From positions 2,365,382 through 2,429,381 of the forward strand of contig OZ240245.1 of assembly GCA_965198175.1 (NCBI GenBank): a stretch of 64,000 nt of DNA, in the 5' to 3' direction. The stretch comes from Candidatus Poribacteria bacterium. GTDB lineage: Bacteria > Poribacteria > WGA-4E > PCPOR2b. The stretch's first letter is position 1; each line of letters starts with the position of its first letter. Under the pieces are notes generated by a model, which worked only from the letters and a program-made list of their open reading frames with translations, did no database searches and had not been told where the DNA came from. This document shows positions 125-46,034 of this stretch, in pieces. The position numbers and the translations under genes are program-made.

Positions 125-694
125 GTGAGTCATGGATGGTCAGAGAACATCCATGACAATGGCGGCCTCGTTTCACAATGGGATAGAGGTGATATACTCA
201 GTTTCAGTTACCTGAGTGAAGGCAAAGGCTATCGGACGCTCGGCGTAAAGATAGATTTTTCATATCACATTCCCACCAATACAAGCGCGACAGTGCAGTG
301 GTGGCCGGCAATGAGAGAACGTACTGTTGGGTTTGCGCTATTGGGGGGAGTTGCGCGATACAGAGATGCCGACGCCGGTCGCCTTCAGTCAAGTTGGACA
401 GGTGGAGAAACCTCAAATGAGTCCAGTCACATTACGCCGTTTCTCGGTGCTAGTTTGAAACTCTACCCGATGGATACTGTCACAGTTGACATCGCAATTT
501 CGACTAAACTTAGGTCGGTCGACACATTCTCTAGCCGAGAATCAGATTCTATCGCGACACATCTACACCACTACGAAGTTGAAACTCGGGTTTACATTAC
601 CCCCGCGTTGAATCTGAGGCTCAGCTACGGAAAATGGTACCTAGGAGATCGTGGAAACACAACTGTACAGCTTGGGCTCGGGGTTACCTTCTGA
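125..694 (+). CDS. hypothetical protein, possible outer-membrane beta-barrel
   Basis: Six-frame ORF of 189 aa. Alternating amphipathic pattern and a C-terminal ...LGLGVTF ending with aromatic Phe, typical of OM beta-barrels. No clear signal peptide, so it may be truncated or mis-started. Confidence 0.3.
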   Translation: MSHGWSENIHDNGGLVSQWDRGDILSFSYLSEGKGYRTLGVKIDFSYHIPTNTSATVQWWPAMRERTVGFALLGGVARYRDADAGRLQSSWTGGETSNESSHITPFLGASLKLYPMDTVTVDIAISTKLRSVDTFSSRESDSIATHLHHYEVETRVYITPALNLRLSYGKWYLGDRGNTTVQLGLGVTF

Positions 695-10582: not shown

Positions 10583-10817
10583 TGAATTTGGACCTTGCGC
10601 GGGCTGCATTCTAAATCTTAGGGGCTTGCGTAGGTCCAATATCTAAACAATTACCCTTTCAATGTGATTCAGATTTACAGCATTCCCAAACCGTTATATG
10701 AACAACGACGCGCAACCGACTTTGGTTTTGCGGTTGTCGGATGTTTTCTGAGAGACTCCTGTCGCAATTCGACTTAGTCCTCTGCACTCACTTGAATAAC
10801 GGAAAAAACCGTATCCG

Positions 10818-11123
10818 TCAGCACTTGACTTGGATTTGACCGTCTTCAACGAGGACTTCATAAGATTTCACTTGCAGCCGCACATCTGTCCGGCAGACAC
10901 CGGTTTTGGCATCATACGCGTAGCCATGAACAGGACAGATTGCCAGCCCATTTTTTATGCGTCCTCTGCCCAGCGACCCCAGCGCGTGGGCGCATGTATT
11001 GTTGAGTGCGTAGAAATTTTCTCCGTCGTTGAAAACCGCAATCCGTTTTCCGTTAACGGTGAAGGCTTTGCTTCGTCCGACGGGAATATCTGACGTTTTT
11101 GCAACGGGAGCGTAAGATGACAT
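10818..11123 (-). CDS. Rieske [2Fe-2S] ferredoxin-like small protein (NirD-like)
   Basis: Rieske boxes CAH (C-x-H) and CPVH (C-x-x-H) at the correct spacing. Start trimmed to MSSYAPV, which has a GGAG RBS. About 101 aa. Confidence 0.65.
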   Translation of the reverse strand: MSSYAPVAKTSDIPVGRSKAFTVNGKRIAVFNDGENFYALNNTCAHALGSLGRGRIKNGLAICPVHGYAYDAKTGVCRTDVRLQVKSYEVLVEDGQIQVKC

Positions 11124-11273
11124 CGTAATTCTCCTCTTGTGTTCAGCTTTCATCGGCACTGGAAACATAACAAACTTGTGTGAAACGTGAAGAAACACTT
11201 TGGCGTGCCCTGATTCTACCTTCCCCATTTTACATCGATCTACGACCGATTGTAAAGCAGGAAATTCCTTCTT

Positions 11274-30648: not shown

Positions 30649-30699
30649 CGGCGAACCTTTCCAAAATGAAGCAAAGAATCACGAATAGGAGTTACGCGG

Positions 30700-31800
30700 A
30701 GCAGATAGACACGGACAGTAAAAAGCAGTAAAATAAGGAACGAGGAGGTAAGTATGGTGAAACCAACCCGGCTTGATTACTGTCAGTATCTGCTGAGCAG
30801 TCCAATTAACTATACCTTAACGCACTTCGCCGACCACAGCGAAGATTTCAGTCATGATATGATAAACCGTTATCTGGCGGGAGATTGTATTCCTCCTCGC
30901 TTGGTGTGGGAAAACGTTAAACCTCATCTGGTTCAAGTTGAAGAAGGATATGTCATCTTTGATGACACGGTTTTAGATAAAAAGCACGCTAGGCATATTG
31001 AGTTAGTACGTCGTCAATACAGTGGCAACGCCCGGGGTGTTATCAACGGCATCGGAGTAGTTACTTGTGTCTATGTGAATCCACTGCTAGACCGTTTCTG
31101 GGTAATTGACTACCGGATTTACGACCCAGAAGGAGACGGCAAAACGAAGTTAGACCACGTCAGAGACATGTTATCTCTACTGGTCTACCAGAGACAACTT
31201 CTCTTTCAAGCAGTGCTGATGGACAGTTGGTATGCTACCAAAACCGTGATGCTACACATTGAAAACTTGGGAAAAGTCTACTACTGCCCACTAAAAACCA
31301 ATCGGCTGGTTGACGATTCAAACGCCAATAAACCGTACCAACGCATTGACAACTTAGCTTGGACACCGACCGAACTTCATGAAGGCAAACGTATCAAAAT
31401 CAAAGGGTTTCCCAGAGACCACAAGGTGAAATTATTTCGGGTGGCGTCTGATACCGGACGCACGGATTATGTCGTCACTAACGACTTAGCACAAAACGAC
31501 ACTTCAGTGACACAACAGGCGTGTAACTGGCGGTGGAAGATTGAGCAATTTCACCGTGAAGCCAAACAACTCACCGGTCTCGAAAAATGTCAATGTCGAT
31601 TGGCACGGATTGTTCGCAACCATATCGGTTGTGCATTGTTAGTTTGGATTCGACTTGCAACTATGGCGTACCAGACTGGACGAACCATTTATCAGGTTAA
31701 ACACGGGATGCTGGAAGCGTATTTACGACAACAGTTAAAATCTCCGGCTATTAACATGGCGCTTGCGTAAGTCCTAACGAAGTGTACCATCCCTTTTCTG
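30700..31800. mobile_element. IS element (IS4/IS701-like), boundaries approximate
   Basis: Contains a single DDE transposase gene. Terminal inverted repeats could not be resolved by eye. Confidence 0.45.
30754..31770 (+). CDS. DDE transposase, IS4/IS701-like
   Basis: 338 aa. Candidate catalytic D (FDDTV), D (LMDSWYA) and E (HREAKQ, with K downstream), in the typical IS4-type arrangement. Confidence 0.65.
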   Translation: MVKPTRLDYCQYLLSSPINYTLTHFADHSEDFSHDMINRYLAGDCIPPRLVWENVKPHLVQVEEGYVIFDDTVLDKKHARHIELVRRQYSGNARGVINGIGVVTCVYVNPLLDRFWVIDYRIYDPEGDGKTKLDHVRDMLSLLVYQRQLLFQAVLMDSWYATKTVMLHIENLGKVYYCPLKTNRLVDDSNANKPYQRIDNLAWTPTELHEGKRIKIKGFPRDHKVKLFRVASDTGRTDYVVTNDLAQNDTSVTQQACNWRWKIEQFHREAKQLTGLEKCQCRLARIVRNHIGCALLVWIRLATMAYQTGRTIYQVKHGMLEAYLRQQLKSPAINMALA

Positions 31801-32965: not shown

Positions 32966-34000
32966 ATGTATACGCTCGAACCGCTGAATAGAGAACGTTC
33001 AGATGTGTGGGACAAAATTTTGAGTCATTGTCCGAACAGTACTGCTTTTCACTCAACCACTTGGCGCAATGCGCTGGCGGGTTCTTTCAAACAGTTGACT
33101 CCCACTTACTTTCTGATTAAGGAAAATGGCACGACGATTGGCGGATTGCCTGTTTTCGTTTTTCAACCTATTCCCAGTATCAAGATGTTACAGTCAATGC
33201 CGTGGAATCTGTCCGGTGGGATTCAACTGATCGAGGAATCATCGGTGAATCTCAACCTCCTGTTTCAAGCCGTTGAAAGTCGTTTGAATCGGTTCGTCAG
33301 TGAACATGGCCTCTGTGAAACGCTCTTCACCCTCTCGCCAAGCCAGACAGATGACCTTGGGCAGAAGTTGATTGAATTGGGGTATCGAAGGTGCGAGAAG
33401 CGCTTTACACACCTTCTCAAAACCCATCCGGATTACGATGTCGTCTGGACAGGCTACAAGAAGTCAATAAGAAAGGCGGTCAGAAAGGCGGTGAAATCAG
33501 GGGTATCGGTTTACGACACGGACAAGGAGAGCGATCTCGAAGCATTCTACGAGATTTACTTGGCAACGCAAAAGAAGGTCCGGGGTGTTCCCAAACCCTT
33601 GTCTCTGCTGAAATTTCTTTTTCACAGCGACCTTGCGAAGTTAGTAATCGCAAAACATGATGGATTGATTATCGCAGGGGTGCTATATTTGTACTTCAAC
33701 CGCACCGTAACGCCTTGGTGCGGTGGTTCTGTGCCTGAGTTTCTTGAGTATCGTCCGAACAACGTGATCCTCCATCACATCATCAAATGGGCATGTTCCG
33801 ATGGATATGCGTGGGTGGATCTCGGGGCGTCGCCCCCGGATAATCCTGGATTGATTGTTTACAAAGAACAGCATCGAGCAAAGCGATTTGATTTTTGTAG
33901 TTATTTAAAAATCCACTCTCCTATTAAAAGAGCGGTATGGCAAAGGTCTGAACCAGCACTCCGAAAGATCTACACTTGGGTGCAGCACGCGCGAAGTTAA
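32966..34000 (+). CDS. FemAB/GNAT-fold acyltransferase family protein
   Basis: 344 aa. N-terminal ...NSTAFHSTTW... and overall layout resemble the FemAB / CelD-like GNAT family. Confidence 0.45.
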   Translation: MYTLEPLNRERSDVWDKILSHCPNSTAFHSTTWRNALAGSFKQLTPTYFLIKENGTTIGGLPVFVFQPIPSIKMLQSMPWNLSGGIQLIEESSVNLNLLFQAVESRLNRFVSEHGLCETLFTLSPSQTDDLGQKLIELGYRRCEKRFTHLLKTHPDYDVVWTGYKKSIRKAVRKAVKSGVSVYDTDKESDLEAFYEIYLATQKKVRGVPKPLSLLKFLFHSDLAKLVIAKHDGLIIAGVLYLYFNRTVTPWCGGSVPEFLEYRPNNVILHHIIKWACSDGYAWVDLGASPPDNPGLIVYKEQHRAKRFDFCSYLKIHSPIKRAVWQRSEPALRKIYTWVQHARS

Positions 34001-34273: not shown

Positions 34274-35083
34274 GTGAAAGCCGCATTTAGGAAACTAACC
34301 CTCGTATGCGTAAGTTCTAGTTTTCTTGGGCTGATAATCGCAAGCCCAAGTTATTCCAAAATTAACTCAGAAACCATCGTCGGAATCTGGTTACTTGATG
34401 AAGGTCAAGGAGATATAGCAAAAGACGCTTCTGGCAACGGCCATGATGGAGAGTTCATCGGTTTAAACCCTCAATGGGTAAAAGGCAAGTTCGGCAGGGC
34501 GTTTGAATTTGACGGACAGGATGATTCTGTCCTATTTAATGCCAAAGAACGTCCCGAACACGCTTTTATATTTCATCAGCCGACCGACGCGACATTCCTG
34601 TTTTGGGTGAAAAGACTCACGTTACCTCATGTTGCGATATTCTGGACGAGAGGGGATAACTCCGATAACGGTAGATTTAATGTCTATGCGGGCGCAGGTG
34701 AAAATTTTGGCTTCACTTACAAAGCTGATGATGGAACACCACATGGGATTTTTTCTCGCACAGTTGAACTCCCTTTAAAGGAATGGACGCACTTAGCAAT
34801 AACACGGGAAGGCAATACCTATGTTGCTTACAAAGATGGAATTATAGCGGACGAAACCGTTGATCCAGAACCAGACCTGCCCACAGCTAAAAGATGGATC
34901 GCTTCGGGCAGAGATGGTTTTCTTTTCAACGGCATCCTCGACGAAATTGCCGCGTTCAATGCCGTCCTGAGTGAAGAGGATATTAACAGGATCATGAATG
35001 ATGGACTTGAGAAATCAGCGCTCACTGTTTCCTTGGCTGGGAAACTGACGACAATTTGGGGACAAATAAAGCACGTGGAATAA
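34274..35083 (+). CDS. secreted LamG (concanavalin-A-like lectin) domain protein, array member 1
   Basis: GTG start after AAGGAGG. Signal peptide. LamG_3-like motifs (DASGNGHDGEF, KGKFGRAFEFDGQDDSV, WTHLAITREG, ILDEIAAFNAVLSEEDI). Confidence 0.6.
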   Translation: MKAAFRKLTLVCVSSSFLGLIIASPSYSKINSETIVGIWLLDEGQGDIAKDASGNGHDGEFIGLNPQWVKGKFGRAFEFDGQDDSVLFNAKERPEHAFIFHQPTDATFLFWVKRLTLPHVAIFWTRGDNSDNGRFNVYAGAGENFGFTYKADDGTPHGIFSRTVELPLKEWTHLAITREGNTYVAYKDGIIADETVDPEPDLPTAKRWIASGRDGFLFNGILDEIAAFNAVLSEEDINRIMNDGLEKSALTVSLAGKLTTIWGQIKHVE

Positions 35084-35417
35084 TTCTGGCTTGAAGCTTC
35101 CAGAATAAGGCATCTGAAAATTGCTTAGGAAATATGCACCAAGTTTTGCGCTGTCACAACATCAACAGAGATCCCACAGAAAGTCTAAGCGGCCCCATCC
35201 GCAGCCGAACTCGCGGAAGTCCGAGAGAATGTCCAAATTATTCAAAATTTGCCTTAGAAACCGTCGTCAAGGTCTGGGGATATTCGATTAAGGCAAAGGC
35301 GACGAGGATTTAGATTCTTCTGAGAGCGAGTTGCACGGTGTGATCGCCGGGAATCCCGCTTGGGTCAAAGGGGAGCTGAAGCAAAATAGAACCCATCAAA
35401 ACCAAAGGAGGACAGCG

Positions 35418-36212
35418 ATGCGTGCTTTAATATTCGCGCTTTTGACAATTGCTTTGATTTATGCTTTTTCCTTCACAGCAGAGGCGGCAATCAACCCGGA
35501 AGCTATAGTGCTTTCGTTGTCGTTTGACGAAGGAGCAGGTGAAGAAGCTAAGGACGCCTCCCCACTCGGGAACAACGTGTTTTTCGTTGAAGGGGCGAAA
35601 TGGGGTGAGGGAAAATTCGGAAAGTGTGTACGGTTGAAAAAGACCGCTCACCTAGAGACTGAGATGCCAAACCTTGAGCTACACAATACTGATTTGACGA
35701 TGGCAATGTGGGTTAACTTCGCCGAGGAACCCGGCTGGGTTGCGCTTATGAGTCACGATGAAGGCGCGCAAATAGGCGCGAAAAAATGGGCCTGGTGGTA
35801 TTCGGCCGGCGCGTTCGTTTTCTATATTGATGACGCAGATGAAAAGCGCGAGTGGGTGCGTTCCGATTTCTTTGGGACACCAGAGCTTAATCGGTGGTAT
35901 CACCTCGCGTTTGTCAAGCAGAATGACCTACATACACATTATGTGGACGGTGAACCGTTTGGGGAGGAAGAAAAAAAAGCGCCTGTACCCGAAGCAATTA
36001 TAGGGCCATTATCCATCGGTGCGACAGGTATTAGGTATTTTTTCCAGGGTCTACTGGACGAGGCTTTGATTGTGCGGCAAGCGTTAAGCCAGAACGACAT
36101 CCAGAAGCATCTCGACGGCGGCGTTGACGGAATCCTGGCGGTCGACCCGGGTGGAAAACTCGCAACTAGATGGGGCAGCCTGAAGATGGAACGCAATTTG
36201 TCCGGCAATTGA
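35418..36212 (+). CDS. secreted LamG-domain protein, array member 2
   Basis: Signal peptide MRALIFALLTIALIYAFSFTAEA. Shares the core LSFDEG.GEEAKDAS..GN, AKWGEGKFGKCVRL, LAMWVNF, NRWYHLAFVKQ, FQGLLDEALIV.QALSQNDIQKH and KLATRWGSLKM with members 3-6. Confidence 0.65.
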   Translation: MRALIFALLTIALIYAFSFTAEAAINPEAIVLSLSFDEGAGEEAKDASPLGNNVFFVEGAKWGEGKFGKCVRLKKTAHLETEMPNLELHNTDLTMAMWVNFAEEPGWVALMSHDEGAQIGAKKWAWWYSAGAFVFYIDDADEKREWVRSDFFGTPELNRWYHLAFVKQNDLHTHYVDGEPFGEEEKKAPVPEAIIGPLSIGATGIRYFFQGLLDEALIVRQALSQNDIQKHLDGGVDGILAVDPGGKLATRWGSLKMERNLSGN

Positions 36213-36303
36213 TGGATTAATCCCTCAAATATTCAGTCCACTTCCGGCAAGATGGAAGGGCAATACCAAATTGAAAGCTAATCAGCGGCTAGGGAGGAAA
36301 ACA

Positions 36304-37101
36304 ATGCGTGTTTCGATATCCATGTTCTTAATGATAGTTTCGGTGTGGACGTTTCCATTCGGAGCAGAGGCGGCAATCAACCCGGAAGCTATAGTGCTTG
36401 CGTTGTCGTTTGACGCAGGAGAAGGTGAAGAAGCTAAGGACGCCTCCCCACTCGGGAACAACGTCTTACTCGTAGAAGAGGCAAAATGGGATGAAGGGAA
36501 GTTGGGTAAGTGTGTGCGACTTAAAAAGACCGCTCACCTAGAGACTGAGATGCCAAACCTTGAGCTACACAATACCGATTTGACGCTGGCGATGTGGGTA
36601 AACTTCGCCGAGGAACCCGGCTGGGTTGCCCTGATGAGTCACGATGAAGGCGCTGGATTAAATCTCAAGAAATGGGCTTGGTGGCTTCAGTCCGGTACGT
36701 TCGTGTTCCACATTGATGATGCGATTGAGAAGCGCGAATGGATCCGTTCCGATTTCTTTGGTGCACCGGAACTCAACCGGTGGTACCATCTCGCGTTTGT
36801 CAAACAGAAGGCCCTACATACGCATTATGTAGACGGTGAACCGTTTGGGGATGAGGAAAAAAAAGCACCTATTCCCGAAGCAATTGAAGGACCATTCTCT
36901 ATCGGTGCGACGGGTATTAGGTACTTTTTCCAAGGCTTGCTAGATGAAGCATTGATCGTAAAGCAGGCGTTGAGCCAGAACGACATTCAGAAGCATTTCG
37001 CTGGCGGCGTTGCCCGCATTCTAGCAGTGGAGCCGGGTGGAAAGCTCGCAACCAGATGGGGCAGCCTGAAGATGGGACGCGGCTATTCTTACGGTCAATG
37101 A
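36304..37101 (+). CDS. secreted LamG-domain protein, array member 3
   Basis: Close paralog of member 2 (about 85% aa identity). RBS-supported ATG at 36304. Confidence 0.65.
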   Translation: MRVSISMFLMIVSVWTFPFGAEAAINPEAIVLALSFDAGEGEEAKDASPLGNNVLLVEEAKWDEGKLGKCVRLKKTAHLETEMPNLELHNTDLTLAMWVNFAEEPGWVALMSHDEGAGLNLKKWAWWLQSGTFVFHIDDAIEKREWIRSDFFGAPELNRWYHLAFVKQKALHTHYVDGEPFGDEEKKAPIPEAIEGPFSIGATGIRYFFQGLLDEALIVKQALSQNDIQKHFAGGVARILAVEPGGKLATRWGSLKMGRGYSYGQ

Positions 37102-37184
37102 AGCAATATCCCAAGAAATTCAATCTGCTTCCAGCGACTTGGCGGGTCGATTATCAATACATCCACGACAATAGAGTGACAATA

Positions 37185-37985
37185 ATGCGTGCTTCGAGAT
37201 TCATATGTTTAACGATTGCTTTGGTGTGGGCTCCTTCCTTCAGTGCGAATGCGGGAATCAATGCGGACGCAGTTGTGCTCGCGCTGTCGTTTGACGAAGG
37301 AGAGGGCGAAGAAGCCGTAGACGCATCTCCAAAGAGAAACGACGCAACTCTGGTACAGGGCGCTAAATGGGGTGAAGGAAAGTTTGAAACATGCGTCCGT
37401 TTAAAAAAGATTGCCCATGTAGAGGTTGCAAACCATCCAACCCTTGATTTGCACGACACTGACTTTACGCTGGCAATGTGGATGAACTTTTCCGACGAAC
37501 CCGGCTGGTATAACCTGATGGCACACAGTGAGGGGCCTGGAGGAGATGATAAGAAGTGGTTCTGGATGTTCTCTGGCGGCAAGTTCAAATTCCACATCTT
37601 TAACCCGGGAGGCGAGCTAGTGTGGATAGATTCCGACTTCTTTGGGTTCCCTGAGCTTAACCGTTGGTACCACCTCGCCTTGGTCAAGCAGGGTGACCAG
37701 TACAGTTTTTTTCTGGATGGCGAACTGTTCGGGGAATCAGTAAAAGACTTGCCTGTTCCCAAGGAGATTAACAACGCTCTCACCATTGGATGGTCGCAAG
37801 AAGATCGCTATTTTCAGGGCCTTCTAGATGAGGTGTTCATTGTGAAACAGGCACTGACCCAAGACGATGTCCAAAGGCATCTATCCGGTGGCATCCAAGG
37901 GATTTTAGCTGTCGAACCCGGTGAGAAGTTTACGACCAGATGGGGTAGCTTGAAGATAGGACACGGATTGTCCAATGACCGATGA
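37185..37985 (+). CDS. secreted LamG-domain protein, array member 4
   Basis: Paralog with signal peptide MRASRFICLTIALVWAPSFSANA. ATG at 37185. Confidence 0.65.
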   Translation: MRASRFICLTIALVWAPSFSANAGINADAVVLALSFDEGEGEEAVDASPKRNDATLVQGAKWGEGKFETCVRLKKIAHVEVANHPTLDLHDTDFTLAMWMNFSDEPGWYNLMAHSEGPGGDDKKWFWMFSGGKFKFHIFNPGGELVWIDSDFFGFPELNRWYHLALVKQGDQYSFFLDGELFGESVKDLPVPKEINNALTIGWSQEDRYFQGLLDEVFIVKQALTQDDVQRHLSGGIQGILAVEPGEKFTTRWGSLKIGHGLSNDR

Positions 37986-38052
37986 AGTAATCTCTTGAAA
38001 TAACTATCCAATTTCAGCAAGACGACGCAACAATACACAATAGGGTACAGCG

Positions 38053-38850
38053 ATGCGCGTTACGAGATTCACTTTATTTTTGATTGCTACGCTGTGGGCG
38101 TTATCCTTCACAGTGGCGATTGCAATCGAGCGTGACGCTATTATATTGGCGTTGCCGTTTGACGAAGGAAAGGGCAGAGAAGCCAAGGACGTCTCCATGC
38201 ACGGAAATCACAGCGTCCTATCGGACACCGCCAAGTGGGCACAGGGGAAAATTGGGATGTGTGCACGCTTGAAGGACGCCTACGTGGAAGTGGCGAATCA
38301 CCCAAGTCTCAGCCTGCATAACACCGACTTTACAATGGCGATTTGGATAAAGTTTACCGAGGAGGCAGGCTGGTATGACCTAATGGCTCACAGCGAAGGC
38401 GGTGGAGGTGATGATAAACAGTGGATTTGGCTGCTTTCCGGCGGAAAATTCAAATTCCACCTTCATAACAGAGGAGTTGATATTACGTGGATCGACTCCG
38501 ATTTCTTTGGGTTTCCTGAGCTTGACCGCTGGTACCACCTCGCTCTTCTAAAGCAGGGGAACCAATACACGCATTATCTAGATGGCGAATTGTTCGGGGA
38601 AGAGATGGATGATACCCGCATCCCAGATGAAATCAATCACCCACTCACCATCGGTACGGGACCAGGCGAATTCTTTATACAAGGATTCGTAGATGAGGCT
38701 TTCATCACACGGCAGCCATTGACACAGAACGACATCCGTAACCATTTTGCTGGCGGCATCCAGGGCATTTTGTCAGTTGAACCGAGTGAGAAACTCGCAA
38801 CCAAATGGGGTTATTTGAAGATGGGACACAATGTGTCTCGCCTACAATGA
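38053..38850 (+). CDS. secreted LamG-domain protein, array member 5
   Basis: Paralog with signal peptide MRVTRFTLFLIATLWALSFTVAIA. Confidence 0.65.
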   Translation: MRVTRFTLFLIATLWALSFTVAIAIERDAIILALPFDEGKGREAKDVSMHGNHSVLSDTAKWAQGKIGMCARLKDAYVEVANHPSLSLHNTDFTMAIWIKFTEEAGWYDLMAHSEGGGGDDKQWIWLLSGGKFKFHLHNRGVDITWIDSDFFGFPELDRWYHLALLKQGNQYTHYLDGELFGEEMDDTRIPDEINHPLTIGTGPGEFFIQGFVDEAFITRQPLTQNDIRNHFAGGIQGILSVEPSEKLATKWGYLKMGHNVSRLQ

Positions 38851-38933
38851 AGCAATGCGCCAAGAGATCCAATCCGATTCCAGAAACGTGGAGAGTGAAC
38901 TATAAACTCATCATCAGCATTGGAGTAACAACG

Positions 38934-39737
38934 ATGTGTATTTCAAAGTTCATGTTATTGACGATTGCTTTACTGTGGGCGTTTCCCTTCACCGTATCAA
39001 CAGCAATCGACCAAGACGTTATTGTACTAGCGCTGTCGTTTGACGAGGGAAAAGGCAGAGACGCCAAGGACATCTCCTCACAGGGAAACCACGGCGTCCT
39101 ATCAGAGACTGCCAAGTGGGCACAGGGGAAAATCGGAATGTGCGCACGCCTAAAGAACGCATATGTAGAAGTGGCGAACCACCCAACACTCAGTCTGCAC
39201 GACACGGACTTTACGATGGCGATCTGGTTAAATTTTGCTGAAGAGGAAAGTTGGTATGACCTAATAGCGCACAACGAAGCACCCGCAATAGATGTCAAGA
39301 AATGGATCTGGATGTTTGCCGGTGGCAAATTTAAATTCCACATTAACGACAGAGGGGTTAAGATTGCGTGGATTGACTCCGAATTCTTCGGGTTTCCCGA
39401 GCTTGACCGCTGGTACCACCTCGCTCTTGTCAAGCAGGGAAACCAATACACGCATTATTTGGATGGAGAATTCTTTGGAGAAGAAACGGATGACACCCCC
39501 ATCCCCGATGAAATCGATCACGTACTCACAATCGGCTCGGGACCAGGCGATCGGTTTATCCAAGGATTTGTGGATGAGCTTTTCATCACGCGGCAGCCAT
39601 TGACACAGAACGATATCCTTAACCATTTTGCTGGGGGCGTCCAGGGCGTTTTGTCAGTTGAGTTAGGAGACAAACTCGCAACTAGATGGGGAGACCTAAA
39701 GACTGGTCGGACATCCCTTCCTTCGAATCCTCCGTAA
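38934..39737 (+). CDS. secreted LamG-domain protein, array member 6
   Basis: Close paralog of member 5. Signal peptide MCISKFMLLTIALLWAFPFTVSTA. Confidence 0.65.
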   Translation: MCISKFMLLTIALLWAFPFTVSTAIDQDVIVLALSFDEGKGRDAKDISSQGNHGVLSETAKWAQGKIGMCARLKNAYVEVANHPTLSLHDTDFTMAIWLNFAEEESWYDLIAHNEAPAIDVKKWIWMFAGGKFKFHINDRGVKIAWIDSEFFGFPELDRWYHLALVKQGNQYTHYLDGEFFGEETDDTPIPDEIDHVLTIGSGPGDRFIQGFVDELFITRQPLTQNDILNHFAGGVQGVLSVELGDKLATRWGDLKTGRTSLPSNPP

Positions 39738-39958: not shown

Positions 39959-40037
39959 AGGTTTGGCTATCGTACAAACATGAAGCCAACTTGAGAAATT
40001 GGTTTTTTCGTTTGTTTCAATTATAGGAGATAAGGAA

Positions 40038-40889
40038 ATGGGTGAGTTGTTTACAGAAGAAGAAGTCAACCGATTCCATCGAGATAGTTTTATCATTGTC
40101 GAGAACTTTCTGGATGCGGAGGAGACTCAACTCCTTTATGAGGCAGCCAAAGGAGACTATGTACTGATGCAACACGCTCACGAGGTTAAGGACACAGAAG
40201 GGAAGAACTCTAAGCTGGCGCTTTGGGATCAACCTGGCAACGACATCTACGGGCTGATTGCTAAAAGCCATAAGATGGTGGACAGGATAGAGCAGTTGCT
40301 CGGCGCCGAAGTATATCACTACCATTCCACGATGATGCTCAAAGAACCCCGGGTCGGCGGAGCGTGGGAATGGCATCAGGACTATGGATACTGGTATCAC
40401 TACGGCTGTCTATTCCCAGATGTTGCCGCGTGTATGGTCGCGATTGATGAGCAGACGGAAGAAAACGGCTGCCTACAGGTGATTAAAGGATCACACCGGC
40501 TAGGACGTTTGGATCATGTGGAACAAACCTCTGCGGGCAGTACCCAGACCAGTATCGATCCAGAACGCATAGAAGCCATCCTAGCACGCATGGAATTGGT
40601 CTATTGTGAAATGCCGCCAGGCGCCGGGATTTTCTTTCATGGCAATATCCTACACCGATCCGATGCGAATCTGAGCGACAAACCCCGCTGGGCGCTGAGA
40701 TGTGTTTATAACACGGTTTACAATGACCCCTACAAAGATATCAAACATGCCCGCTATACGCCGCTACAGAAGGTTCCCGATTCGGCAATCAAAGCCGGCG
40801 CCGCTAAAATCAGTGACTCTGCCAAAGAATATTACTCCGGAGAATCACTGCGAACTTCTCGACCCGATGCTTCCGAATCCTCATCCTGA
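40038..40889 (+). CDS. PhyH-family Fe(II)/2-oxoglutarate dioxygenase
   Basis: RBS AGGAG before the ATG. PhyH-type motifs (WHQDYGYW with His-x-Asp, distal FHGNILHRS). Confidence 0.6.
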   Translation: MGELFTEEEVNRFHRDSFIIVENFLDAEETQLLYEAAKGDYVLMQHAHEVKDTEGKNSKLALWDQPGNDIYGLIAKSHKMVDRIEQLLGAEVYHYHSTMMLKEPRVGGAWEWHQDYGYWYHYGCLFPDVAACMVAIDEQTEENGCLQVIKGSHRLGRLDHVEQTSAGSTQTSIDPERIEAILARMELVYCEMPPGAGIFFHGNILHRSDANLSDKPRWALRCVYNTVYNDPYKDIKHARYTPLQKVPDSAIKAGAAKISDSAKEYYSGESLRTSRPDASESSS

Positions 40890-40979: not shown

Positions 40980-41852
40980 ATGCTGGGGACCAATGTGCTC
41001 AGTCAAAACCAAATTGATGAGTTTCGTACCAAAGGCTTTCTCCTCGGTGGATGCGTGGTGAGTGGCAAACAGGTTGACGTTCTGAGGGCGGAAATCGATC
41101 GCGTGCTTGTTAAACAAAATACTGACAAGCCCCAGCCGATCCGGCTTGTGAACCTGTCCCCTAATCCCGATAGCGTAACTTGGCAAATTACGAACATGTG
41201 GGAAGCTAGCGATCCTTTCTGTGAGCTCATATACAACCCCAAAATTGTCGGTGAGGTTGTCCAACTGACGGGGGCGCACCAATTGCGGGTCTGGCACGAT
41301 CAAATCCAGTATAAACTAGCGGAGCGAGGCGGCATCACCGGCTGGCATCAAGATTCGCCTTGTTGGCCCATCCTGACGCCGAAGACAAGCCAAGTGACGG
41401 CATGGGTTGCGCTGGACGATGTAGATACATCCAACGGTTGCATGAGTATGGTCGCAGGGGCATACCATTGGGGAGATCAGATCGATTTTTTGCACAGCAT
41501 ACAGGATTTCAATGCGATGCCGTCAACTTTCCAGGATCGCGACGTGCAGGTAGAGTTGTGTCCGGTACCGGCGGGACATGTTCACTATCATCACGGTTTG
41601 GCTTGGCACGGTTCTCACGCAAATACCAGCACCCGACCGCGTCGAGCGATTGCAATTCACTACATGACCGGTGAGACACGCTACGATTCCACCGGCAACC
41701 ACACGATGAAACCCTTTGTTGAAGTCGCCAATGGAGAGATATTGACAGGTAACCGCTTCCCGTTAGTTTCGGATGATGGCAATGTGATACGCCCGAAATT
41801 GCCGAAGTTTCTCGATTCATTAGGTATTCGGGAAATTAGATGTAGGTTTTAG
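40980..41852 (+). CDS. PhyH-family Fe(II)/2-oxoglutarate dioxygenase (second, divergent copy)
   Basis: WHQDSPCWP with H-x-D, distal HHGLAWHGSHAN. Same fold family as the upstream gene but low identity to it. Confidence 0.55.
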   Translation: MLGTNVLSQNQIDEFRTKGFLLGGCVVSGKQVDVLRAEIDRVLVKQNTDKPQPIRLVNLSPNPDSVTWQITNMWEASDPFCELIYNPKIVGEVVQLTGAHQLRVWHDQIQYKLAERGGITGWHQDSPCWPILTPKTSQVTAWVALDDVDTSNGCMSMVAGAYHWGDQIDFLHSIQDFNAMPSTFQDRDVQVELCPVPAGHVHYHHGLAWHGSHANTSTRPRRAIAIHYMTGETRYDSTGNHTMKPFVEVANGEILTGNRFPLVSDDGNVIRPKLPKFLDSLGIREIRCRF

Positions 41853-41861
41853 GAGTATTCA

Positions 41862-44059
41862 ATGAAGCAGCTGTTCAGCGTAGAGCATTTGATGAACCTC
41901 CAACGCCCAACAGATCGTGTACCAATGAATCTATCGCCAGACGGTCGTTTACTAGCTGTGAGCGTACAGGGAATACGGCGAAAAGCGGTAGATATACGAG
42001 AAGACGGATTTGGCGTAGACGGTGTTTACGAAGCAATGGATGGCAGCCATATATTTGTCATAGATACAATAACTGGAAAAGCTCAAGAGCCATTTCCGAC
42101 TTGAAAGCGTTAGTTGGGGCGGACAGTGGTCACCTGATGGAAGCCGTTTAGCAGCATACGTGCGACACAACGGATTAGTGTGTTTAGGAGTTTGGTCTCC
42201 GGAGACCGATACTTTCCAGTTGTTTCAGCAAGCATTGATACGGACCAAATACGGATTTGAAATCCCGCGATGGACTCCAGATAGCAGAAAGGTTATCGTG
42301 AAGTTATGCCCTGTGAGTGGCGCGTTCAAACCGCCCGCACCAGACCAAGCATTGCTTCCTAATCAACCACCTCCCGTTAGCGTCTTCTCGTTTGATTCCA
42401 CCCGTGAAGTCGATACCCGCCCGACAGGTGCTTGGCTATATGATGGCACATGCTGCGATCTTGGATGTATAGATGTCACTACAGGTGAGGTAACAAGATT
42501 GGTCTGCGATTGGCCTGTGTGGAACTGGCGGGTTGCACCCGATGGTAAAACAGTCGCCGCATTCAAGTTGGCAGAATATGATTCGCAAAGCTACCGGATG
42601 ACCTACGATTTGGTCGTTGTTCCACTAGATGGAACACCTCCACGGACAATTGCTAGCAAGATATATCACGGCGGGGGTGGATTTAACTGGTCTCCCAACA
42701 GTTAGCTTATTGCCATTACAATGGACGATGGGGACGACGACGGATCCCCCAAACAACTCTTTGTTGTACCCGCAGACGGTTCTGAGAGTCCCAGAGCTCT
42801 AATAGACGAGATGACGATTAAGATGGATGATTATCTTGGACCGCACTGGAGTGAAGACAACTCTTCCATATTTTGTTTAACGCGAGATCACGTATGGATA
42901 TTCAATGCTGACGGGAGCAATCAACGCCAAATGAATGTCGTTCTTCCCGGCTGGCGGGTGGTTTTTTGGATTCAGCCTCCGATGGATTCAATATTACGGT
43001 CGTCACCGGATGGTTCTCTTTTCGCTGTTGTTCGAAATGACGTCTGGGACGAAGCAGTGGTTCGCGTTTCTCTTGAAAGTGGCGAAGGGACAATCCTGAC
43101 AGAATTTACCAAGTCGTGTTGGGATCCATTTCAGACCGAAGTTGCCTCCGATTTTTCTGCATGTTACCTTGTGGCTGAATCGGCAGAACACCCCGCAGAA
43201 ATTTGGCGTGTCTCTCTTGATACACCCGTTCTCAACCGTCTCTTTTCACTCAATTCGGATTTAGAGGGCGTTGCGTTAGGTAAACCTCGCTTGATTGAGT
43301 GGCGGGCATTGGACAAACAAATGCGACGTGGTGCGCTGCTCTTGCCTCCAAACTACAGTGAAGGAGAGCGTATTCCGGTGATTGTCCATGTATATCGCGG
43401 TAATTTCTCGTCCTGGATTCACGACTTTGGCTTTGGTGGAGGACACTACGATAATGCGCAATTGCTAGCGAGTCAGGGCTACGCTGTGCTCTGGCCAGAT
43501 CTCCCGATTGATAGACGTAAAATGCAGGAAATACCCAAATTCGTCTTACCTGCTGTTAATCGGTTGATTGATTTAGACATCGCCGATCCCAATCGAATTG
43601 GACTGATGGGGCATAGTGACGGAGGGTACTGTGTGTTAGCACTTCTAGCCCAAACGGATTGTTTTCGAACAGCTGTCTGTTCTGCAGGTGTGGTCAATAT
43701 TACGAGTGATTACGGTACAATGAATGACAAAGGCGATAATTCTCATGGCTATGAACTAGGAAGCGAAATGGGCGGAACGTTATGGGAAAAACGGGATGCC
43801 TACATAGAAAATTCACCCTTGTTCTACCTTCACCGTGTAAAAACACCATTGCTATTTAGTACAGGGCACGGAGGATATATGGGGGGCAAACCAGGTCAAA
43901 GAAGCGTTTAGTGCATTGCGGCGCCTCGGGAAACCGGTGGAGTTGCGGTTATACCATGGGGAAGAACATTGGCCAGGTGCATGGTCTGAACGTAATTTTC
44001 GGGACGTATGTCACCGAGTCCTAGCCTGGTTTAACCAGTATCTTGGAGCGCCCCAGTGA
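41862..44059 (+). pseudogene. S9-family (prolyl oligopeptidase / dipeptidyl peptidase-like) serine peptidase disrupted by an in-frame TAG and at least two frameshifts
   Basis: The N-terminal beta-propeller (WSPDGR) and C-terminal alpha/beta hydrolase (GHSDGGY = GxSxG; ...VELRLYHGEEHW...) are spread over ORFs 41862..42104, 42160..42705 and 42721..43911 plus an unlisted frame 43893..44059. TAG at 42706..42708 is in frame. The last frameshift sits in a G6 homopolymer at ~43885. Confidence 0.5.
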
Positions 44060-45113: not shown

Positions 45114-46034
45114 CTACCAATTGGGATCGTAGTCCCAGTCGACTTTCTGGTTTCCGTATCGCTTGTCATTAAACATCGTCTGATGACAATCGAGGCATCT
45201 GTCATACAGGTTCACGCCGTGAACCTCATGTGCAAGCTGAATCTCGGGTGTGTTGTGAACGTGACACGTCCGGCAGGTGTACGTTCCGTAGCTTACATCG
45301 GAGTGAATGTTGAGCTGTCTTTCATCGTTCCTGACAGAGTATCTCCGTCCGTTTCTTGGGTCGATTATCAGCCACTCATTACCCTTCTTTTTCATCGAAA
45401 TCACAGTATCTTCAGATATTGGAATCTCGCGAATATCAAATTCCCACTGCACATCTTCCGGAAGCCTGTCCTCCTTGTCAAACTCTTCTTGCAGGTGCAC
45501 ATCAAAACTGAATAACAGTGAATCCGTGGTATGACACCGCGCACAAGGAACATCGTGTAATTGCGTCAACGGAAAGAACTCGTCGTGATCGAGTTTCTCA
45601 CGACCGTGTACGATGATACCAACCATTAAGATTGGGGCAAGTGCGAGATGGACACGCAACAGAATCCGTCTTGCTCGACGCGCCGTTAGACTCACCGCGA
45701 TACCTGTTCCTAGGTTGAGCAATGCCAGGGTGAGTGTCAACCAAGAATGCCATGCAAGTGGGCGAACAGCGGAGTGAATAACAACGAGACACAAACCAAA
45801 AGACGCCAGCCTTTGATGATATTTCAACCAGATTTGCCGACTACCCCATCGAATCAGGCGTGTGCGCAGGATGTAACCGCTTGCAATCAGGATGGCAATT
45901 GCCCCAATGATGCTGAGTATATGCCGCACTTCGCCATAGCCCGATTCCCATAGCCCAAAGGGAGAGGATATCAACACGAATGCGACGACAACTGCTCCAG
46001 CAACACCGTAGGCAATTTGTATAAACTGGCTCAT
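45114..46034 (-). CDS. integral-membrane tri-heme c-type cytochrome, possibly with a b-heme-binding TM domain
   Basis: About 5 N-terminal TM helices carrying conserved His. The C-terminal soluble domain has three CxxCH motifs (CARCH, CRTCH, CLDCH). Confidence 0.5.
   Translation of the reverse strand: MSQFIQIAYGVAGAVVVAFVLISSPFGLWESGYGEVRHILSIIGAIAILIASGYILRTRLIRWGSRQIWLKYHQRLASFGLCLVVIHSAVRPLAWHSWLTLTLALLNLGTGIAVSLTARRARRILLRVHLALAPILMVGIIVHGREKLDHDEFFPLTQLHDVPCARCHTTDSLLFSFDVHLQEEFDKEDRLPEDVQWEFDIREIPISEDTVISMKKKGNEWLIIDPRNGRRYSVRNDERQLNIHSDVSYGTYTCRTCHVHNTPEIQLAHEVHGVNLYDRCLDCHQTMFNDKRYGNQKVDWDYDPNW

What the first reader, a model, noticed from the sequence alone, without database searches (positions are those of the whole stretch)
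34274..39737. Tandem array of six secreted LamG (concanavalin-A-like) single-domain paralogs with a conserved C-terminal motif
Six same-strand genes of about 265-270 aa each encode a signal peptide plus one Laminin-G_3-like lectin fold. Members 2-6 share 55-85% identity (LSFDEGEGEEAKDAS..GN, AKWGEGKFGKCVRLKKTAH, LAMWVNF, NRWYHLAFVKQ, FQGLLDEALIV.QALSQNDIQKH), and so do the short intergenic spacers, which points to recent unequal-crossover amplification. All copies end with a conserved GGKLATRWGSLK(M/I)G segment just before a variable tail; this could be a sorting, anchoring or recognition signal. Free-standing single-LamG secreted proteins in a rapidly diversifying array are unusual and suggest surface ligand-binding, adhesion or decoy functions. 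The array sits directly downstream of an IS element (30754..31770) and is followed by two PhyH dioxygenases and a decayed peptidase, so the whole block looks accessory.
Basis: partly seen in the sequence, partly recalled or inferred. Interest (0 to 1): 0.7.

Follow-up and report, generated by a model that had tools for sequence, protein, structure and literature searches.

The report
Lectin gene array with shared tail tag
Six neighbouring genes of an uncultured sponge-associated bacterium (Poribacteria) encode exported lectin-like proteins. Each ends in the same short tail motif, and this motif turns out to be an undescribed address tag carried by many unrelated exported proteins and often encoded beside one uncharacterised membrane protein.

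Summary
There are six same-strand genes (34274-39737). Each has a signal-peptide-like N-terminus, one Laminin_G_3 domain, and the motif T-x-W-G-x-[IL]-K 3-11 residues before the stop.

The evolutionary reading does not hold. The whole array has 1:1 orthologs in three other Poribacteria genomes (74-91% aa). Paralog dS is 0.65 to saturated. dN/dS is 0.12-0.36. The IS is a private insertion 2.5 kb upstream. So the array is old, conserved and under purifying selection.

The tail motif is the real finding. It is a 17-residue tag, L-A-V-[ES]-P-x-x-K-L-A-[TI]-x-W-G-x-[IL]-K, lying outside the fold (AF2 pLDDT <50).
- 44 of 46 Poribacteria loci carry it, against 1 of 32 loci from other taxa.
- In a metagenome scan, 131 of 133 matches lie within 25 residues of a stop codon.
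- 104 of 109 complete carriers have signal-like N-termini.
- Carriers include LamG, CBM9, DUF1080, Kelch, PD40, NPCBM and esterase proteins, and ECF-sigma/TM/Kelch fusions.

No Pfam or NCBIfam model and no paper covers the tag. Tagged genes repeatedly abut a polytopic DUF6785/DUF6784 membrane protein.

Most likely the tag is a docking or sorting signal. This function is inferred, not shown.

The parts
34274..35083 (+). c1: exported single-domain LamG protein, 269 aa. It belongs to a divergent subfamily, 28-31% identical to c2-c6. GTG start with an AAGGAGG Shine-Dalgarno site. The tail after the tag is 3 aa.
   Evidence: ORF. Laminin_G_3 1.1e-16. Identity. Orthologs 77-89% aa in L001-L003. dN/dS 0.16-0.18.
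35418..36212 (+). c2: exported LamG protein, 264 aa, 81% identical to c3.
   Evidence: 2.5e-19; orthologs 80-88%; dN/dS 0.15-0.23.
36304..37101 (+). c3: exported LamG protein, 265 aa.
   Evidence: 1.1e-19; 81-87%; 0.15-0.21.
37185..37985 (+). c4: exported LamG protein, 266 aa. The true ATG is at 37185. This copy was structure-modelled from 37188.
   Evidence: (6.5e-23). AF2 model: mean pLDDT 83, sandwich at residues 29-219, helix 225-239, tail <50. Foldseek hits to lectin-like jelly rolls. Orthologs 78-91%.
38053..38850 (+). c5: exported LamG protein, 265 aa, 72% identical to c6.
   Evidence: 4e-18; 80-83%; 0.19-0.36.
38934..39737 (+). c6: exported LamG protein, 267 aa.
   Evidence: 3.1e-17; 74-91%; 0.16-0.21.
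35021..35071 (+). C-terminal tag core of c1 (LTVSLAGKLTTIWGQIK), followed by HVE and the stop.
   Evidence: (26.1 bits).
36135..36185 (+). C-terminal tag core of c2 (LAVDPGGKLATRWGSLK), followed by an 8-aa tail.
   Evidence: 35.7 bits.
37021..37071 (+). C-terminal tag core of c3 (LAVEPGGKLATRWGSLK), followed by a 9-aa tail.
   Evidence: 36.7 bits.
37905..37955 (+). C-terminal tag core of c4 (LAVEPGEKFTTRWGSLK), followed by a 9-aa tail.
   Evidence: 33.7 bits. AF2 pLDDT <50.
38770..38820 (+). C-terminal tag core of c5 (LSVEPSEKLATKWGYLK), followed by a 9-aa tail.
   Evidence: 32.0 bits.
39651..39701 (+). C-terminal tag core of c6 (LSVELGDKLATRWGDLK), followed by an 11-aa tail.
   Evidence: 31.6 bits.
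36213..36303 (+). Spacer c2-c3. It is one of four mutually homologous short spacers; the others are 37102-37184, 37986-38052 and 38851-38933. They are relics of a duplicated gene-plus-spacer unit. The only invariant part is the ribosome-binding site.
   Evidence: Alignment of 16 spacers from four genomes: 48% mean column identity. RNAalifold predicts no conserved structure.

Best explanation
The locus is an old six-gene array in a conserved stretch of a Candidatus Poribacteria chromosome. Each gene encodes a Sec-exported protein of about 265 aa that is a single LamG / concanavalin-A-like beta-sandwich. After the sandwich come a short helix, a flexible linker, and a 17-residue linear motif: L-A-V-[ES]-P-x-x-K-L-A-[TI]-x-W-G-x-[IL]-K. 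A few unconstrained residues follow before the stop.

The six copies are kept separately by purifying selection. They are therefore best read as six binding modules with different specificities, probably for glycans. They are not a fast-evolving family.

The motif is not part of the LamG fold. It is a modular C-terminal tag shared by many otherwise unrelated exported proteins of Poribacteria and of uncultured bacteria in other metagenomes.

The mechanism I consider most likely is inferred, not shown. The tag is a short docking or sorting peptide, probably a beta-strand with an interfacial Trp flanked by two Lys. One common envelope component reads it. All tagged proteins, including the six lectins of this array, are thereby brought to the same address on the extracytoplasmic side.

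The best candidate reader is the polytopic DUF6785/DUF6784 membrane protein, which is repeatedly encoded directly beside tagged genes.
For: SHOWN
- Domain and fold. Pfam Laminin_G_3 is above threshold in all six. The AF2 model has mean pLDDT 83 and pTM 0.81. Foldseek hits lectin-like jelly rolls at E about 1e-10.
- Organism. The nearest loci are Candidatus Poribacteria MAG chromosomes.
- Age and selection. The region is colinear across four genomes at 79-89% nt, while paralogs are 63-73% nt. Orthologs are 1:1 at 74-91% aa. Ortholog dN/dS is 0.12-0.36. Paralog dS is 0.65 to saturated.
- The tag is separable. AF2 residues 242-265 have pLDDT <50, after helix 225-239.
- The tag sits on other folds. 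The same motif ends PD40 propellers and proteins with no Pfam match in Poribacteria loci.
- Position and taxa. All 87 HMM hits of at least 14 bits are C-terminal and none is internal. 44 of 46 Poribacteria loci carry a tagged ORF, against 1 of 32 other loci.
- Metagenome scan with a degenerate DNA pattern. 131 of 133 peptide matches lie within 25 aa of a stop, and 126 within 5 aa. The median ORF is 270 aa. 104 of 109 complete ORFs have a signal-like hydrophobic N-terminus.
- Unconstrained positions are also conserved: A at -11, G/D at -6, T at -2 and -1.
- Negative control. In 2.9 million viral contigs there was one hit, and it is a genuine tagged LamG ORF.
- Cargo census of 118 carriers: Laminin_G_3 56, CBM9 8, DUF1080 8, Kelch 5, NPCBM 3, esterase 3, CBM_4_9 3, peptidase S9 2, F5/8-C 2.
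- Constraint is on the protein, not the DNA. In the tag, dN/dS is 0.22 and dS is 0.54, like the rest of the gene. The tail after the tag is relaxed at 0.57.

INFERRED
- Docking rather than export. The tag also ends proteins made of an ECF sigma factor, one TM helix and a periplasmic Kelch propeller. These cannot leave the inner membrane.
- Partner. A tagged gene directly abuts a DUF6785/6784 gene in L009, L011, L016, L030, L048, L054, L107 and L180.
- Independent sample for the partner. When DUF6785 genes were picked by sequence alone, 4 of 7 distinct contexts had a tagged gene within 2.5 kb. The cargo domains differed: F5/8-C, DUF1080-like and LamG.
Against: - No experiment and no complex model links the tag to any partner.
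- The 64-kb window holds no DUF6785 gene. Most tagged genes are not next to one.
- The DUF6785 linkage counts include orthologous contexts, so they are not independent events. No rigorous background rate could be computed.
- The tag lacks the transmembrane helix that known sortase, exosortase and rhombosortase signals use to present the cleavage site.
- The tail after the tag is 8-11 aa in c2-c6, against a mode of 3 elsewhere. The array may therefore be an atypical user of the tag.
- Ligands of the LamG domains are unknown. 'Glycan-binding' rests on the fold family and on carbohydrate-related neighbours in other loci.
- Signal peptides were judged by hydrophobicity and by eye, not by a trained predictor.
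Confidence: 0.55

Rival explanations
1. This is a specific form of docking. The tagged lectin-like proteins are extracytoplasmic substrate-binding partners of a DUF6785/6784 transporter. The tag is the peptide by which many different binders, including c1-c6, hand glycan fragments to one permease. The ECF-sigma/TM/Kelch/tag proteins sense occupancy of that permease.
For: - DUF6785 is a large polytopic protein with at least 10 hydrophobic segments.
- It sits in catabolic contexts. L030 has LamG-tag, then DUF6785, then a sulfatase without a signal peptide. L205 has a LacI regulator, a DUF1080 protein and GH2. L206 has GH38.
- The cargo is mostly carbohydrate-binding modules without catalytic domains.
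- Tagged ECF-sigma fusions exist.
Against: - No similarity of DUF6785 to any known transporter family was found.
- LamG and CBM folds are not known solute-binding proteins.
- Esterases and peptidases also carry the tag.
- Most tagged genes are unlinked to DUF6785.
Confidence: 0.2
2. The tag is a secretion or surface-attachment signal that is cleaved or covalently processed. This would be the functional analogue of the T9SS C-terminal domain with PorU, of PEP-CTERM with exosortase, or of Lpp-type Lys-to-peptidoglycan linkage. DUF6785 or another enzyme would be the sorting enzyme.
For: - The tag sits at the extreme C-terminus on Sec-exported, diverse cargo.
- Two near-invariant Lys residues are present, and the tail after the last Lys is short and unconstrained.
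- Substrates are dispersed, with some genes next to a polytopic membrane protein. This is the pattern seen for exosortase-type systems (established knowledge).
- A FemAB-like gene resembling the PEP-CTERM-associated family lies just upstream of the array (TIGR03019, 87.8 bits, below the 260 cutoff).
Against: - There is no TM helix or basic anchor after the motif.
- No T9SS CTD, PEP-CTERM or other sorting-domain model matches, even at E<=10.
- The AF2 model shows no folded CTD.
- Inner-membrane-anchored sigma-factor fusions carry the tag. That argues against outer-membrane export as its sole role.
- T9SS genes were reported absent from Poribacteria (PMC3909097).
- The FemAB-like gene is simply part of a long syntenic block.
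Confidence: 0.15
3. The motif has an intrinsic structural role. It could be a terminal strand that completes the domain, or one that drives homo-oligomerisation or fibre formation by strand exchange. In that case no dedicated reader exists.
For: - The composition is beta-strand-like: alternating L/T/W and beta-branched residues.
- There is weak similarity of the LamG body to the fimbrial TafC family.
Against: - The motif occurs after unrelated folds: beta-propellers, alpha/beta hydrolases and several beta-sandwich types.
- It is disordered in the confident c4 model.
- It is separated from the domain by a helix and a linker.
- The TafC match covers only the LamG domain and is far below the cutoff (about 12-31 bits in c1-c6 against 410).
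Confidence: 0.07
4. The array is a recently amplified, rapidly diversifying accessory cassette, mobilised or seeded by the adjacent IS element.
For: The genes are in tandem with homologous spacers. An IS lies 2.5 kb upstream. A pseudogene lies downstream.
Against: - All six copies and their order are conserved in three other species.
- Paralog dS is 0.65 to more than 2.
- dN/dS is 0.12-0.36.
- The IS is absent from L001-L003.
- GC content is uniform.
Confidence: 0.03

Closest known systems
Pfam PF13385 Laminin_G_3 (concanavalin-A-like lectin/glucanase superfamily); structurally the lectin-like jelly roll of clostridial neurotoxin Hc-N and domain 4 of the GH43 arabinanase AbnA
   Same: All six proteins score above the curated threshold. 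The model is a confident jelly roll that superposes on these structures (Foldseek E 7e-11 to 1e-9, TM-score 0.58-0.66).
   Different: The proteins are free-standing single domains with their own signal peptide, a C-terminal helix and the tag. Sequence identity to solved structures is only 10-17%. No ligand is known.
T9SS type A C-terminal sorting domain (TIGR04183 / Por_Secre_tail)
   Same: It is a C-terminal signal on Sec-exported cargo of many domain types, including carbohydrate-binding modules and hydrolases. Kamke et al. 2014 (PMC3909097) reported possible TIGR04183 domains on poribacterial WD40-type genes and noted that no T9SS genes were found.
   Different: The tag has a 17-residue core, whereas the TIGR04183 profile is 72 positions long and, from my own knowledge, describes a folded domain. 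No HMM match falls on the tag. In a tagged PD40 protein the only TIGR04183 match (21.3 bits, below the cutoff of 23) falls on an internal PD40 repeat at residues 80-112. The tag also sits on inner-membrane-anchored proteins.
PEP-CTERM/exosortase, LPXTG/sortase, GlyGly-CTERM/rhombosortase sorting signals
   Same: It is a short conserved motif near the C-terminus of many dispersed secreted proteins. Some substrate genes lie next to a polytopic membrane protein. A 'V-E-P' tripeptide opens the tag. A FemAB-like gene related to the PEP-CTERM-associated family lies upstream.
   Different: There is no hydrophobic transmembrane segment and no terminal Arg/Lys cluster after the motif. No NCBIfam sorting-domain model matches. 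No sortase-like or exosortase-like gene was seen in the window.
Dockerin-cohesin docking of cellulosomal enzymes
   Same: It is a modular C-terminal appendage shared by otherwise unrelated carbohydrate-binding and hydrolytic proteins. That is consistent with docking to a common scaffold.
   Different: The tag shows no Pfam match of any kind, dockerin included, and its 17-residue core is far shorter than a dockerin module as I know it. No cohesin-like partner was identified.
Beta-strand augmentation peptides (TonB box; OMP C-terminal beta-signal; DegS-activating YxF tails)
   Same: It is a short extracytoplasmic peptide of strand-like composition with an aromatic residue. It is also present on sigma-factor-linked sensors, which recalls trans-envelope signalling.
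   Different: The consensus is different. The last residue is usually Arg or Lys, not aromatic. The motif can be followed by 0-20 residues.

Membership tests
Laminin_G_3 (PF13385) / ConA-like jelly roll | HMM score above the Pfam gathering threshold | tested here: met
   61.8-82 bits against a cutoff of 27.6 for all six.
Laminin_G_3 (PF13385) / ConA-like jelly roll | Two-sheet beta-sandwich (jelly-roll) fold | tested here: met
   AF2 gives 14 strands with pLDDT mostly >85 over residues 29-219. Foldseek probability is 1.00 to lectin-like jelly rolls.
Laminin_G_3 (PF13385) / ConA-like jelly roll | Carbohydrate or protein ligand binding | not testable with these tools
   No binding data. The invariant residues are the structural LamG_3 motifs (DG, DE, W).
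T9SS type A C-terminal domain (TIGR04183) | HMM match at the C-terminus | tested here: not met
   No hit at E<=1 on c1-c6. No hit at E<=10 on the isolated tag or on other carriers. The one weak hit lies on an internal PD40 repeat.
T9SS type A C-terminal domain (TIGR04183) | Folded beta-sandwich domain at the C-terminus (about 70-100 aa by my own knowledge of the family) | tested here: not met
   After the LamG domain there is only a helix (225-239) and a 24-residue low-confidence tail.
T9SS type A C-terminal domain (TIGR04183) | T9SS machinery (PorK/L/M/N, SprA, PorU/V) in the genome | not testable with these tools
Kamke et al. 2014 report none in poribacterial SAGs.
PEP-CTERM / exosortase-type signals | Motif followed by a transmembrane helix and a basic cluster | tested here: not met
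   After the motif come 0-12 mostly polar residues, with a mode of 3.
PEP-CTERM / exosortase-type signals | Match to curated sorting-domain HMMs | tested here: not met
   NCBIfam scans.
PEP-CTERM / exosortase-type signals | Cognate polytopic sorting enzyme that co-occurs with the signal | tested here: inconclusive
   DUF6785/6784 is gene-linked to tagged genes. Its activity is unknown, and genome-wide co-occurrence was not testable.
Dockerin | Dockerin HMM match / duplicated Ca-binding segment | tested here: not met
   No Pfam family covers the tail of any of the 118 carriers or of c1-c6.
OMP beta-signal | Terminal aromatic residue at the very C-terminus of a beta-barrel protein | tested here: not met
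   The last residue is R in 40, K in 19 and Q in 11 of 131 tags. Carriers are soluble domains.
Recently amplified tandem paralog array | Paralogs closer to each other than to orthologs, with low dS | tested here: not met
   Orthologs are 74-91% aa against paralogs at 28-81%. Paralog dS is at least 0.65.

The most novel reading that the evidence does not exclude
The 17-residue tail and the DUF6785/DUF6784 membrane protein together form a previously unrecognised protein docking or sorting system of Poribacteria and allied uncultured bacteria. It would be comparable in logic to exosortase/PEP-CTERM or T9SS/CTD, but it uses a short strand-like peptide without a membrane anchor. It would address dozens of exported glycan-binding and hydrolytic proteins per genome, and some sigma-factor-coupled sensors, to one envelope site. 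The six-gene LamG array would be one of its largest cargo sets.
Probability: 0.35. Interest if true: 0.85.

Novelty: new variant of a known kind. Interest (0 to 1): 0.68.

Why it matters
Poribacteria are dominant, uncultured sponge symbionts. Their many 'eukaryote-like' and carbohydrate-binding exported proteins are thought to mediate host-matrix use. How these proteins are placed on or around the cell is unknown. An earlier report of a 'Por secretion tail without a Por system' (PMC3909097) was left open.

A short, easily recognised C-terminal tag defines a testable cargo set. That set includes LamG, CBM9, DUF1080, Kelch, PD40, NPCBM and esterase proteins, and sigma-factor-linked sensors. The tag also points to one uncharacterised membrane protein family (DUF6785/6784, at least 824 clusters at 90% identity) as a candidate reader.

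If confirmed, this would add a new kind of bacterial sorting or docking signal. It would give a function to a DUF. It would also provide a sequence handle for predicting the surface or periplasmic glycan-binding repertoire of these symbionts from genomes alone.

The six-gene array itself is ordinary as a gene family: it is an old, conserved set of lectin paralogs.

Tried and rejected
1. A profile search of the 5.8-billion-protein database with the tag alone. With neutral X-padding to 40 aa it returned only 13 short gene fragments from 54 candidates. It confirmed the tag on a few more non-LamG tails but was useless as a census. The metagenome DNA-pattern scan replaced it.
2. A second AF2 job on c1 with only the six window paralogs as the alignment gave mean pLDDT 37. 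It is uninformative.
3. Conserved RNA structure in the homologous spacers: RNAalifold predicts none. The promoter and terminator scan was not above the shuffled expectation.
4. Exact look-up of c5 in public assemblies: not on record. The window's own genome is not in that collection.
5. T9SS CTD, PEP-CTERM and other curated sorting domains: no match.
6. A PDB profile search with DUF6785 gave a single dubious hit to Crov588, with no stretch passing on its own. NCBIfam gave nothing.
7. Literature: no paper holds the motif strings, 'Poribacteria' with 'sorting signal', or DUF6785/6784.
8. A functional link between the upstream FemAB-like gene and the array was considered. It was set aside because the gene is merely part of a 22-kb syntenic block.
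9. DNA-level constraint on the tag, such as a recombination or RNA signal, was rejected. dS in the tag equals that of the rest of the gene.

Full report
**1. What is in the window**

The ORF listing finds six + strand ORFs between 34274 and 39737. I used the signal-peptide methionines and the Shine-Dalgarno sites seen in the alignment and spacers to refine the starts. The genes are c1 34274-35083, c2 35418-36212, c3 36304-37101, c4 37185-37985, c5 38053-38850 and c6 38934-39737. The products are 264-269 aa.

All six exceed the Pfam gathering score for Laminin_G_3 (61.8-82 bits against 27.6). NCBIfam gives only weak domain-level similarity to the fimbrial TafC family, far below its cutoff.

Each N-terminus has a basic n-region, a hydrophobic core and an AxA-like site. 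This was judged by inspection, because no predictor was available.

An AlphaFold2 model of c4, built on 42 homologs, is confident (mean pLDDT 83, pTM 0.81).
- Residues 29-219 form a beta-sandwich.
- Residues 225-239 form a helix.
- Residues 242-265, which hold the conserved tail motif, are below pLDDT 50.

Foldseek places the sandwich with lectin-like jelly rolls. The top hits are the Hc-N domain of clostridial neurotoxins and domain 4 of the arabinanase AbnA, at E about 1e-10.

Identity is 81% for c2/c3, 72% for c5/c6 and 50-58% for the other pairs among c2-c6. c1 is only 28-31% identical to the rest.

The motif T-x-W-G-x-[IL]-K lies 3-11 residues before the stop in all six. It occurs nowhere else in the six-frame translation of the window.

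**2. Whose genome, and how old is the array**

A scan of one genome per species with a family profile returned Candidatus Poribacteria MAG chromosomes as the nearest loci. L001 (OZ245030.1) is 91% identical to c4, and L002 and L003 are about 80%.

Window 25.7-48.3 kb is colinear with all three at 79-89% nucleotide identity, apart from two local differences. One is the IS. The other is the S9-peptidase stretch (about 41.8-44.3 kb), which does not align in L002/L003. The paralogs match each other at only 63-73%.

Each of the six copies has an intact 1:1 ortholog in each genome, at 74-91% aa.

Nei-Gojobori estimates give the following.

| Comparison | dN/dS | dS |
|---|---|---|
| Orthologs | 0.12-0.36 | - |
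| Closest paralog pair c2/c3 | - | 0.65 |
| Paralog pair c5/c6 | - | 0.81 |
| Other paralog pairs | - | above 1.1 or saturated |

By region, dN/dS is 0.60 in the signal peptide, 0.14 in the LamG body, 0.15 in the helix, 0.22 in the tag and 0.57 in the tail after the tag.

The DDE transposase at 30754-31770 sits in a segment of about 1.1 kb that is missing from L001-L003. It is separated from c1 by a TPR/HEAT gene and a FemAB-like gene.

GC content is like the flanks. The neighbours include YvcK, NAD synthetase, IlvD and RecD2.

The array is therefore an old, stably inherited part of the chromosome of this clade. Every copy is under purifying selection. 'Recent unequal crossover', 'rapidly diversifying' and 'accessory block next to an IS' are not supported.

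The four short spacers are indeed homologous to one another, as expected if a gene-plus-spacer unit was duplicated long ago. They carry no conserved RNA structure.

**3. The tail motif is a modular tag**

I searched the roughly 1.3 Mb of fetched loci with a small HMM of the motif.
- All 87 hits of at least 14 bits lie within 25 residues of a stop codon. None is internal.
- 44 of 46 Poribacteria loci hold at least one tagged ORF, against 1 of 32 loci from other taxa. Those other loci were fetched with the same LamG-family query.

The consensus from 74 distinct instances is L-A-V-[ES]-P-x-x-K-L-A-[TI]-x-W-G-x-[IL]-K. W and the last K are invariant. The tail after the motif is usually 3 residues and often ends in R.

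In Poribacteria the same tail ends four PD40 beta-propeller proteins, a DUF1080-like protein, an unassigned protein family, and a LamG protein with an extra 60-residue insert before the tag.

- Of 133 peptide matches, 131 lie within 25 aa of a stop and 126 within 5 aa.
- The ORFs have a median length of 270 aa.
- 104 of 109 complete ORFs have a signal-like hydrophobic N-terminus.
- Positions the pattern left free are also conserved: A at -11, G/D at -6, T at -2 and -1.

The same pattern gave a single hit in 2.9 million viral contigs. That hit is again a complete tagged LamG ORF. The chance background is therefore negligible.

A Pfam census of 118 carriers gave these counts.

| Pfam family | Carriers |
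|---|---|
| Laminin_G_3 | 56 |
| CBM9 | 8 |
| 3-keto-disaccharide hydrolase / DUF1080 | 8 |
| Kelch | 5 |
| NPCBM | 3 |
| Esterase | 3 |
| CBM_4_9 | 3 |
| Peptidase S9 | 2 |
| F5/8 type C | 2 |

No Pfam family covers the tail itself. NCBIfam has no model for it either, even at E<=10 and with the isolated tail as the query.

Full-text searches found no paper with the motif, and none combining 'Poribacteria' with 'sorting signal'. Public records call these proteins 'hypothetical protein'.

That criterion is not met, so the motif is separable.

**4. What the tag probably does**

Three carriers (L090, L143, L149) have an ECF sigma factor, one transmembrane helix, a Kelch propeller and then the tag. 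The tag is thus also used at the extracytoplasmic end of proteins that stay in the inner membrane. This favours a docking or recognition role over a pure outer-membrane export signal.

I then looked at untagged neighbours of tagged genes. They include glycan-sensor-like Reg_prop/Y_Y_Y-SpoIIE proteins, GFO/IDH/MocA oxidoreductases and sulfatases. Most specifically, they include a polytopic membrane protein with Pfam DUF6785 plus DUF6784.

tblastn finds DUF6785 homologs (30-43% identical to each other) in 9 Poribacteria loci and 5 metagenome loci.
- A tagged gene directly abuts DUF6785 on the same strand in L009, L011, L016, L030, L048, L054, L107 and L180.
- A tagged gene lies within about 1.4 kb in four more loci.
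- L030 reads LamG-tag 9986-10795, then DUF6785 10832-12838, then a sulfatase.

As an independent test, I chose DUF6785 proteins by sequence alone and fetched their contigs. Four of seven distinct contexts carry a tagged gene within 2.5 kb, with different cargo domains.
- A context conserved in three genomes has an F5/8-type-C protein with the tag.
- L205 has a DUF1080-like tagged protein 184 bp upstream.
- L207 has two tagged LamG genes.

These counts include orthologous contexts, and no rigorous background could be computed. Linkage that survives across such divergent homologs and across different cargo folds still indicates functional coupling.

DUF6785 has at least 10 hydrophobic segments. 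It has no NCBIfam model and no convincing relative in the PDB.

My preferred reading is that the tag is a short docking or sorting peptide read by a common envelope component, with DUF6785/6784 as the leading candidate. The steps from 'tag' to 'docking' and to 'DUF6785' are inference.

Two specific versions are listed as rivals. In one, the lectins act as binding partners of a DUF6785 transporter. In the other, there is sortase-like processing or anchoring. An intrinsic structural or oligomerisation role is unlikely, given the variety of carrier folds and the disordered tail in the model.

**5. Comparison with what is known**

Membership in Laminin_G_3 is met on both sequence and fold.

The tag resembles known C-terminal sorting or docking devices in logic: T9SS CTD, PEP-CTERM/LPXTG/GlyGly-CTERM, and dockerin. 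It fails their defining features. It has no folded CTD, no HMM match, no transmembrane helix with a basic cluster, and no dockerin repeats.

Kamke et al. 2014 noted possible TIGR04183 'Por secretion tails' on poribacterial WD40-type genes, but no T9SS genes (PMC3909097). In the one tagged PD40 protein where that model appears here, the sub-threshold match lies on an internal PD40 repeat, not on the tail. That earlier signal may have been a repeat artefact. This is a suggestion from one case.

**6. Verdict**

The array is a genuine but evolutionarily ordinary set of six conserved lectin-like paralogs. The interesting content is the tail.

The tail is an apparently undescribed, highly position-specific C-terminal tag on exported proteins of Poribacteria and of unidentified bacteria from other metagenomes. 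It is gene-linked to an uncharacterised membrane protein family.

c2-c6 are slightly atypical users of the tag. Their post-tag tails are 8-11 aa, against the usual 0-5 aa.

I rate it as a new variant of a known kind (C-terminal sorting or docking signals), with interest 0.68. Function remains to be shown.

Noticed in passing
window 30686-31776 (ORF 30754-31770, +): A DDE-type IS transposase (DDE_Tnp_1/DDE_5) sits in a segment absent from the three syntenic Poribacteria genomes L001-L003. It is a private insertion between a membrane-protein gene and a TPR/HEAT gene.
   Followed up: yes
window 41862-43911 (+), three ORFs in different frames: The S9 prolyl-oligopeptidase-family gene is broken into pieces of 80, 181 and 396 aa here. 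Its ortholog in L001 (14745-16937) is an intact 730-aa ORF. L002 and L003 differ in this stretch. This is either a pseudogene or assembly frameshifts.
   Followed up: partly
L030:10832-12838; also L009, L011, L016, L048, L054, L107, L180, L201-L203, L205, L207, L208: Polytopic DUF6785/DUF6784 membrane proteins (at least 824 clusters; no literature, no NCBIfam model) are repeatedly encoded directly beside genes whose products end in the tag. The cargo domain varies: LamG, F5/8-C or DUF1080-like.
   Followed up: yes
L090:1973-3856 (+), L143:147-2168 (+), L149 (5'-truncated ORF ending at 1552, +): These are single polypeptides combining an ECF sigma-70 factor, one transmembrane helix, a periplasmic Kelch propeller and the C-terminal tag. 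They look like a sigma-factor-linked sensor that carries the same tail as the secreted proteins.
   Followed up: partly
window 32966-34000 (+): A FemAB/GNAT-like protein lies directly upstream of the array. Its best NCBIfam match is the PEP-CTERM-associated FemAB family TIGR03019 (87.8 bits, below the cutoff of 260). It is conserved in synteny, but no specific link to the array was shown.
   Followed up: partly
window 39999-40889 and 40980-41852 (+): Two PhyH (phytanoyl-CoA dioxygenase family) genes follow the array. The supplementary-table titles of Kamke et al. 2014 (PMC3909097; Tables S10 and S11) list phyH domain distribution and poribacterial phyH gene clusters.
   Followed up: no
window 45114-46034 (-): A 306-aa protein has several N-terminal hydrophobic segments and three CxxCH motifs in its C-terminal half (CARCH, CRTCH, CLDCH). 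It looks like a membrane-anchored multihaem cytochrome, but it has no NCBIfam match; it was not scanned against Pfam.
   Followed up: no
a tagged PD40 protein of L004 (1212-2324, -): The T9SS tail model TIGR04183 gives a sub-threshold hit (21.3 bits) on an internal PD40 repeat (residues 80-112), not on the C-terminus. This may explain the earlier report of 'Por secretion tails' in Poribacteria that lack a T9SS.
   Followed up: partly
L199 (IMGVR_UViG_2740892559_000001), match at 453-497 (-): The only match to the tag pattern in 2.9 million viral contigs is a complete tagged LamG ORF (264 aa) on a 78-kb contig classed as viral. It could be a misclassified bacterial contig or a phage-carried copy.
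   Followed up: no
L007 (OZ245030.1 682799-703566) and L008; L004-L006: The genomes that share the six-gene array hold further arrays of tagged LamG genes elsewhere: five in L007 and four in L008. So each genome has at least a dozen tagged lectin genes in several loci.
   Followed up: partly
window 37154-37786 (-) and 38900-39451 (-): Long antisense ORFs (210 and 183 aa) lie inside c4 and c6. They have no support and are probably frame artefacts of the conserved coding sequence.
   Followed up: no
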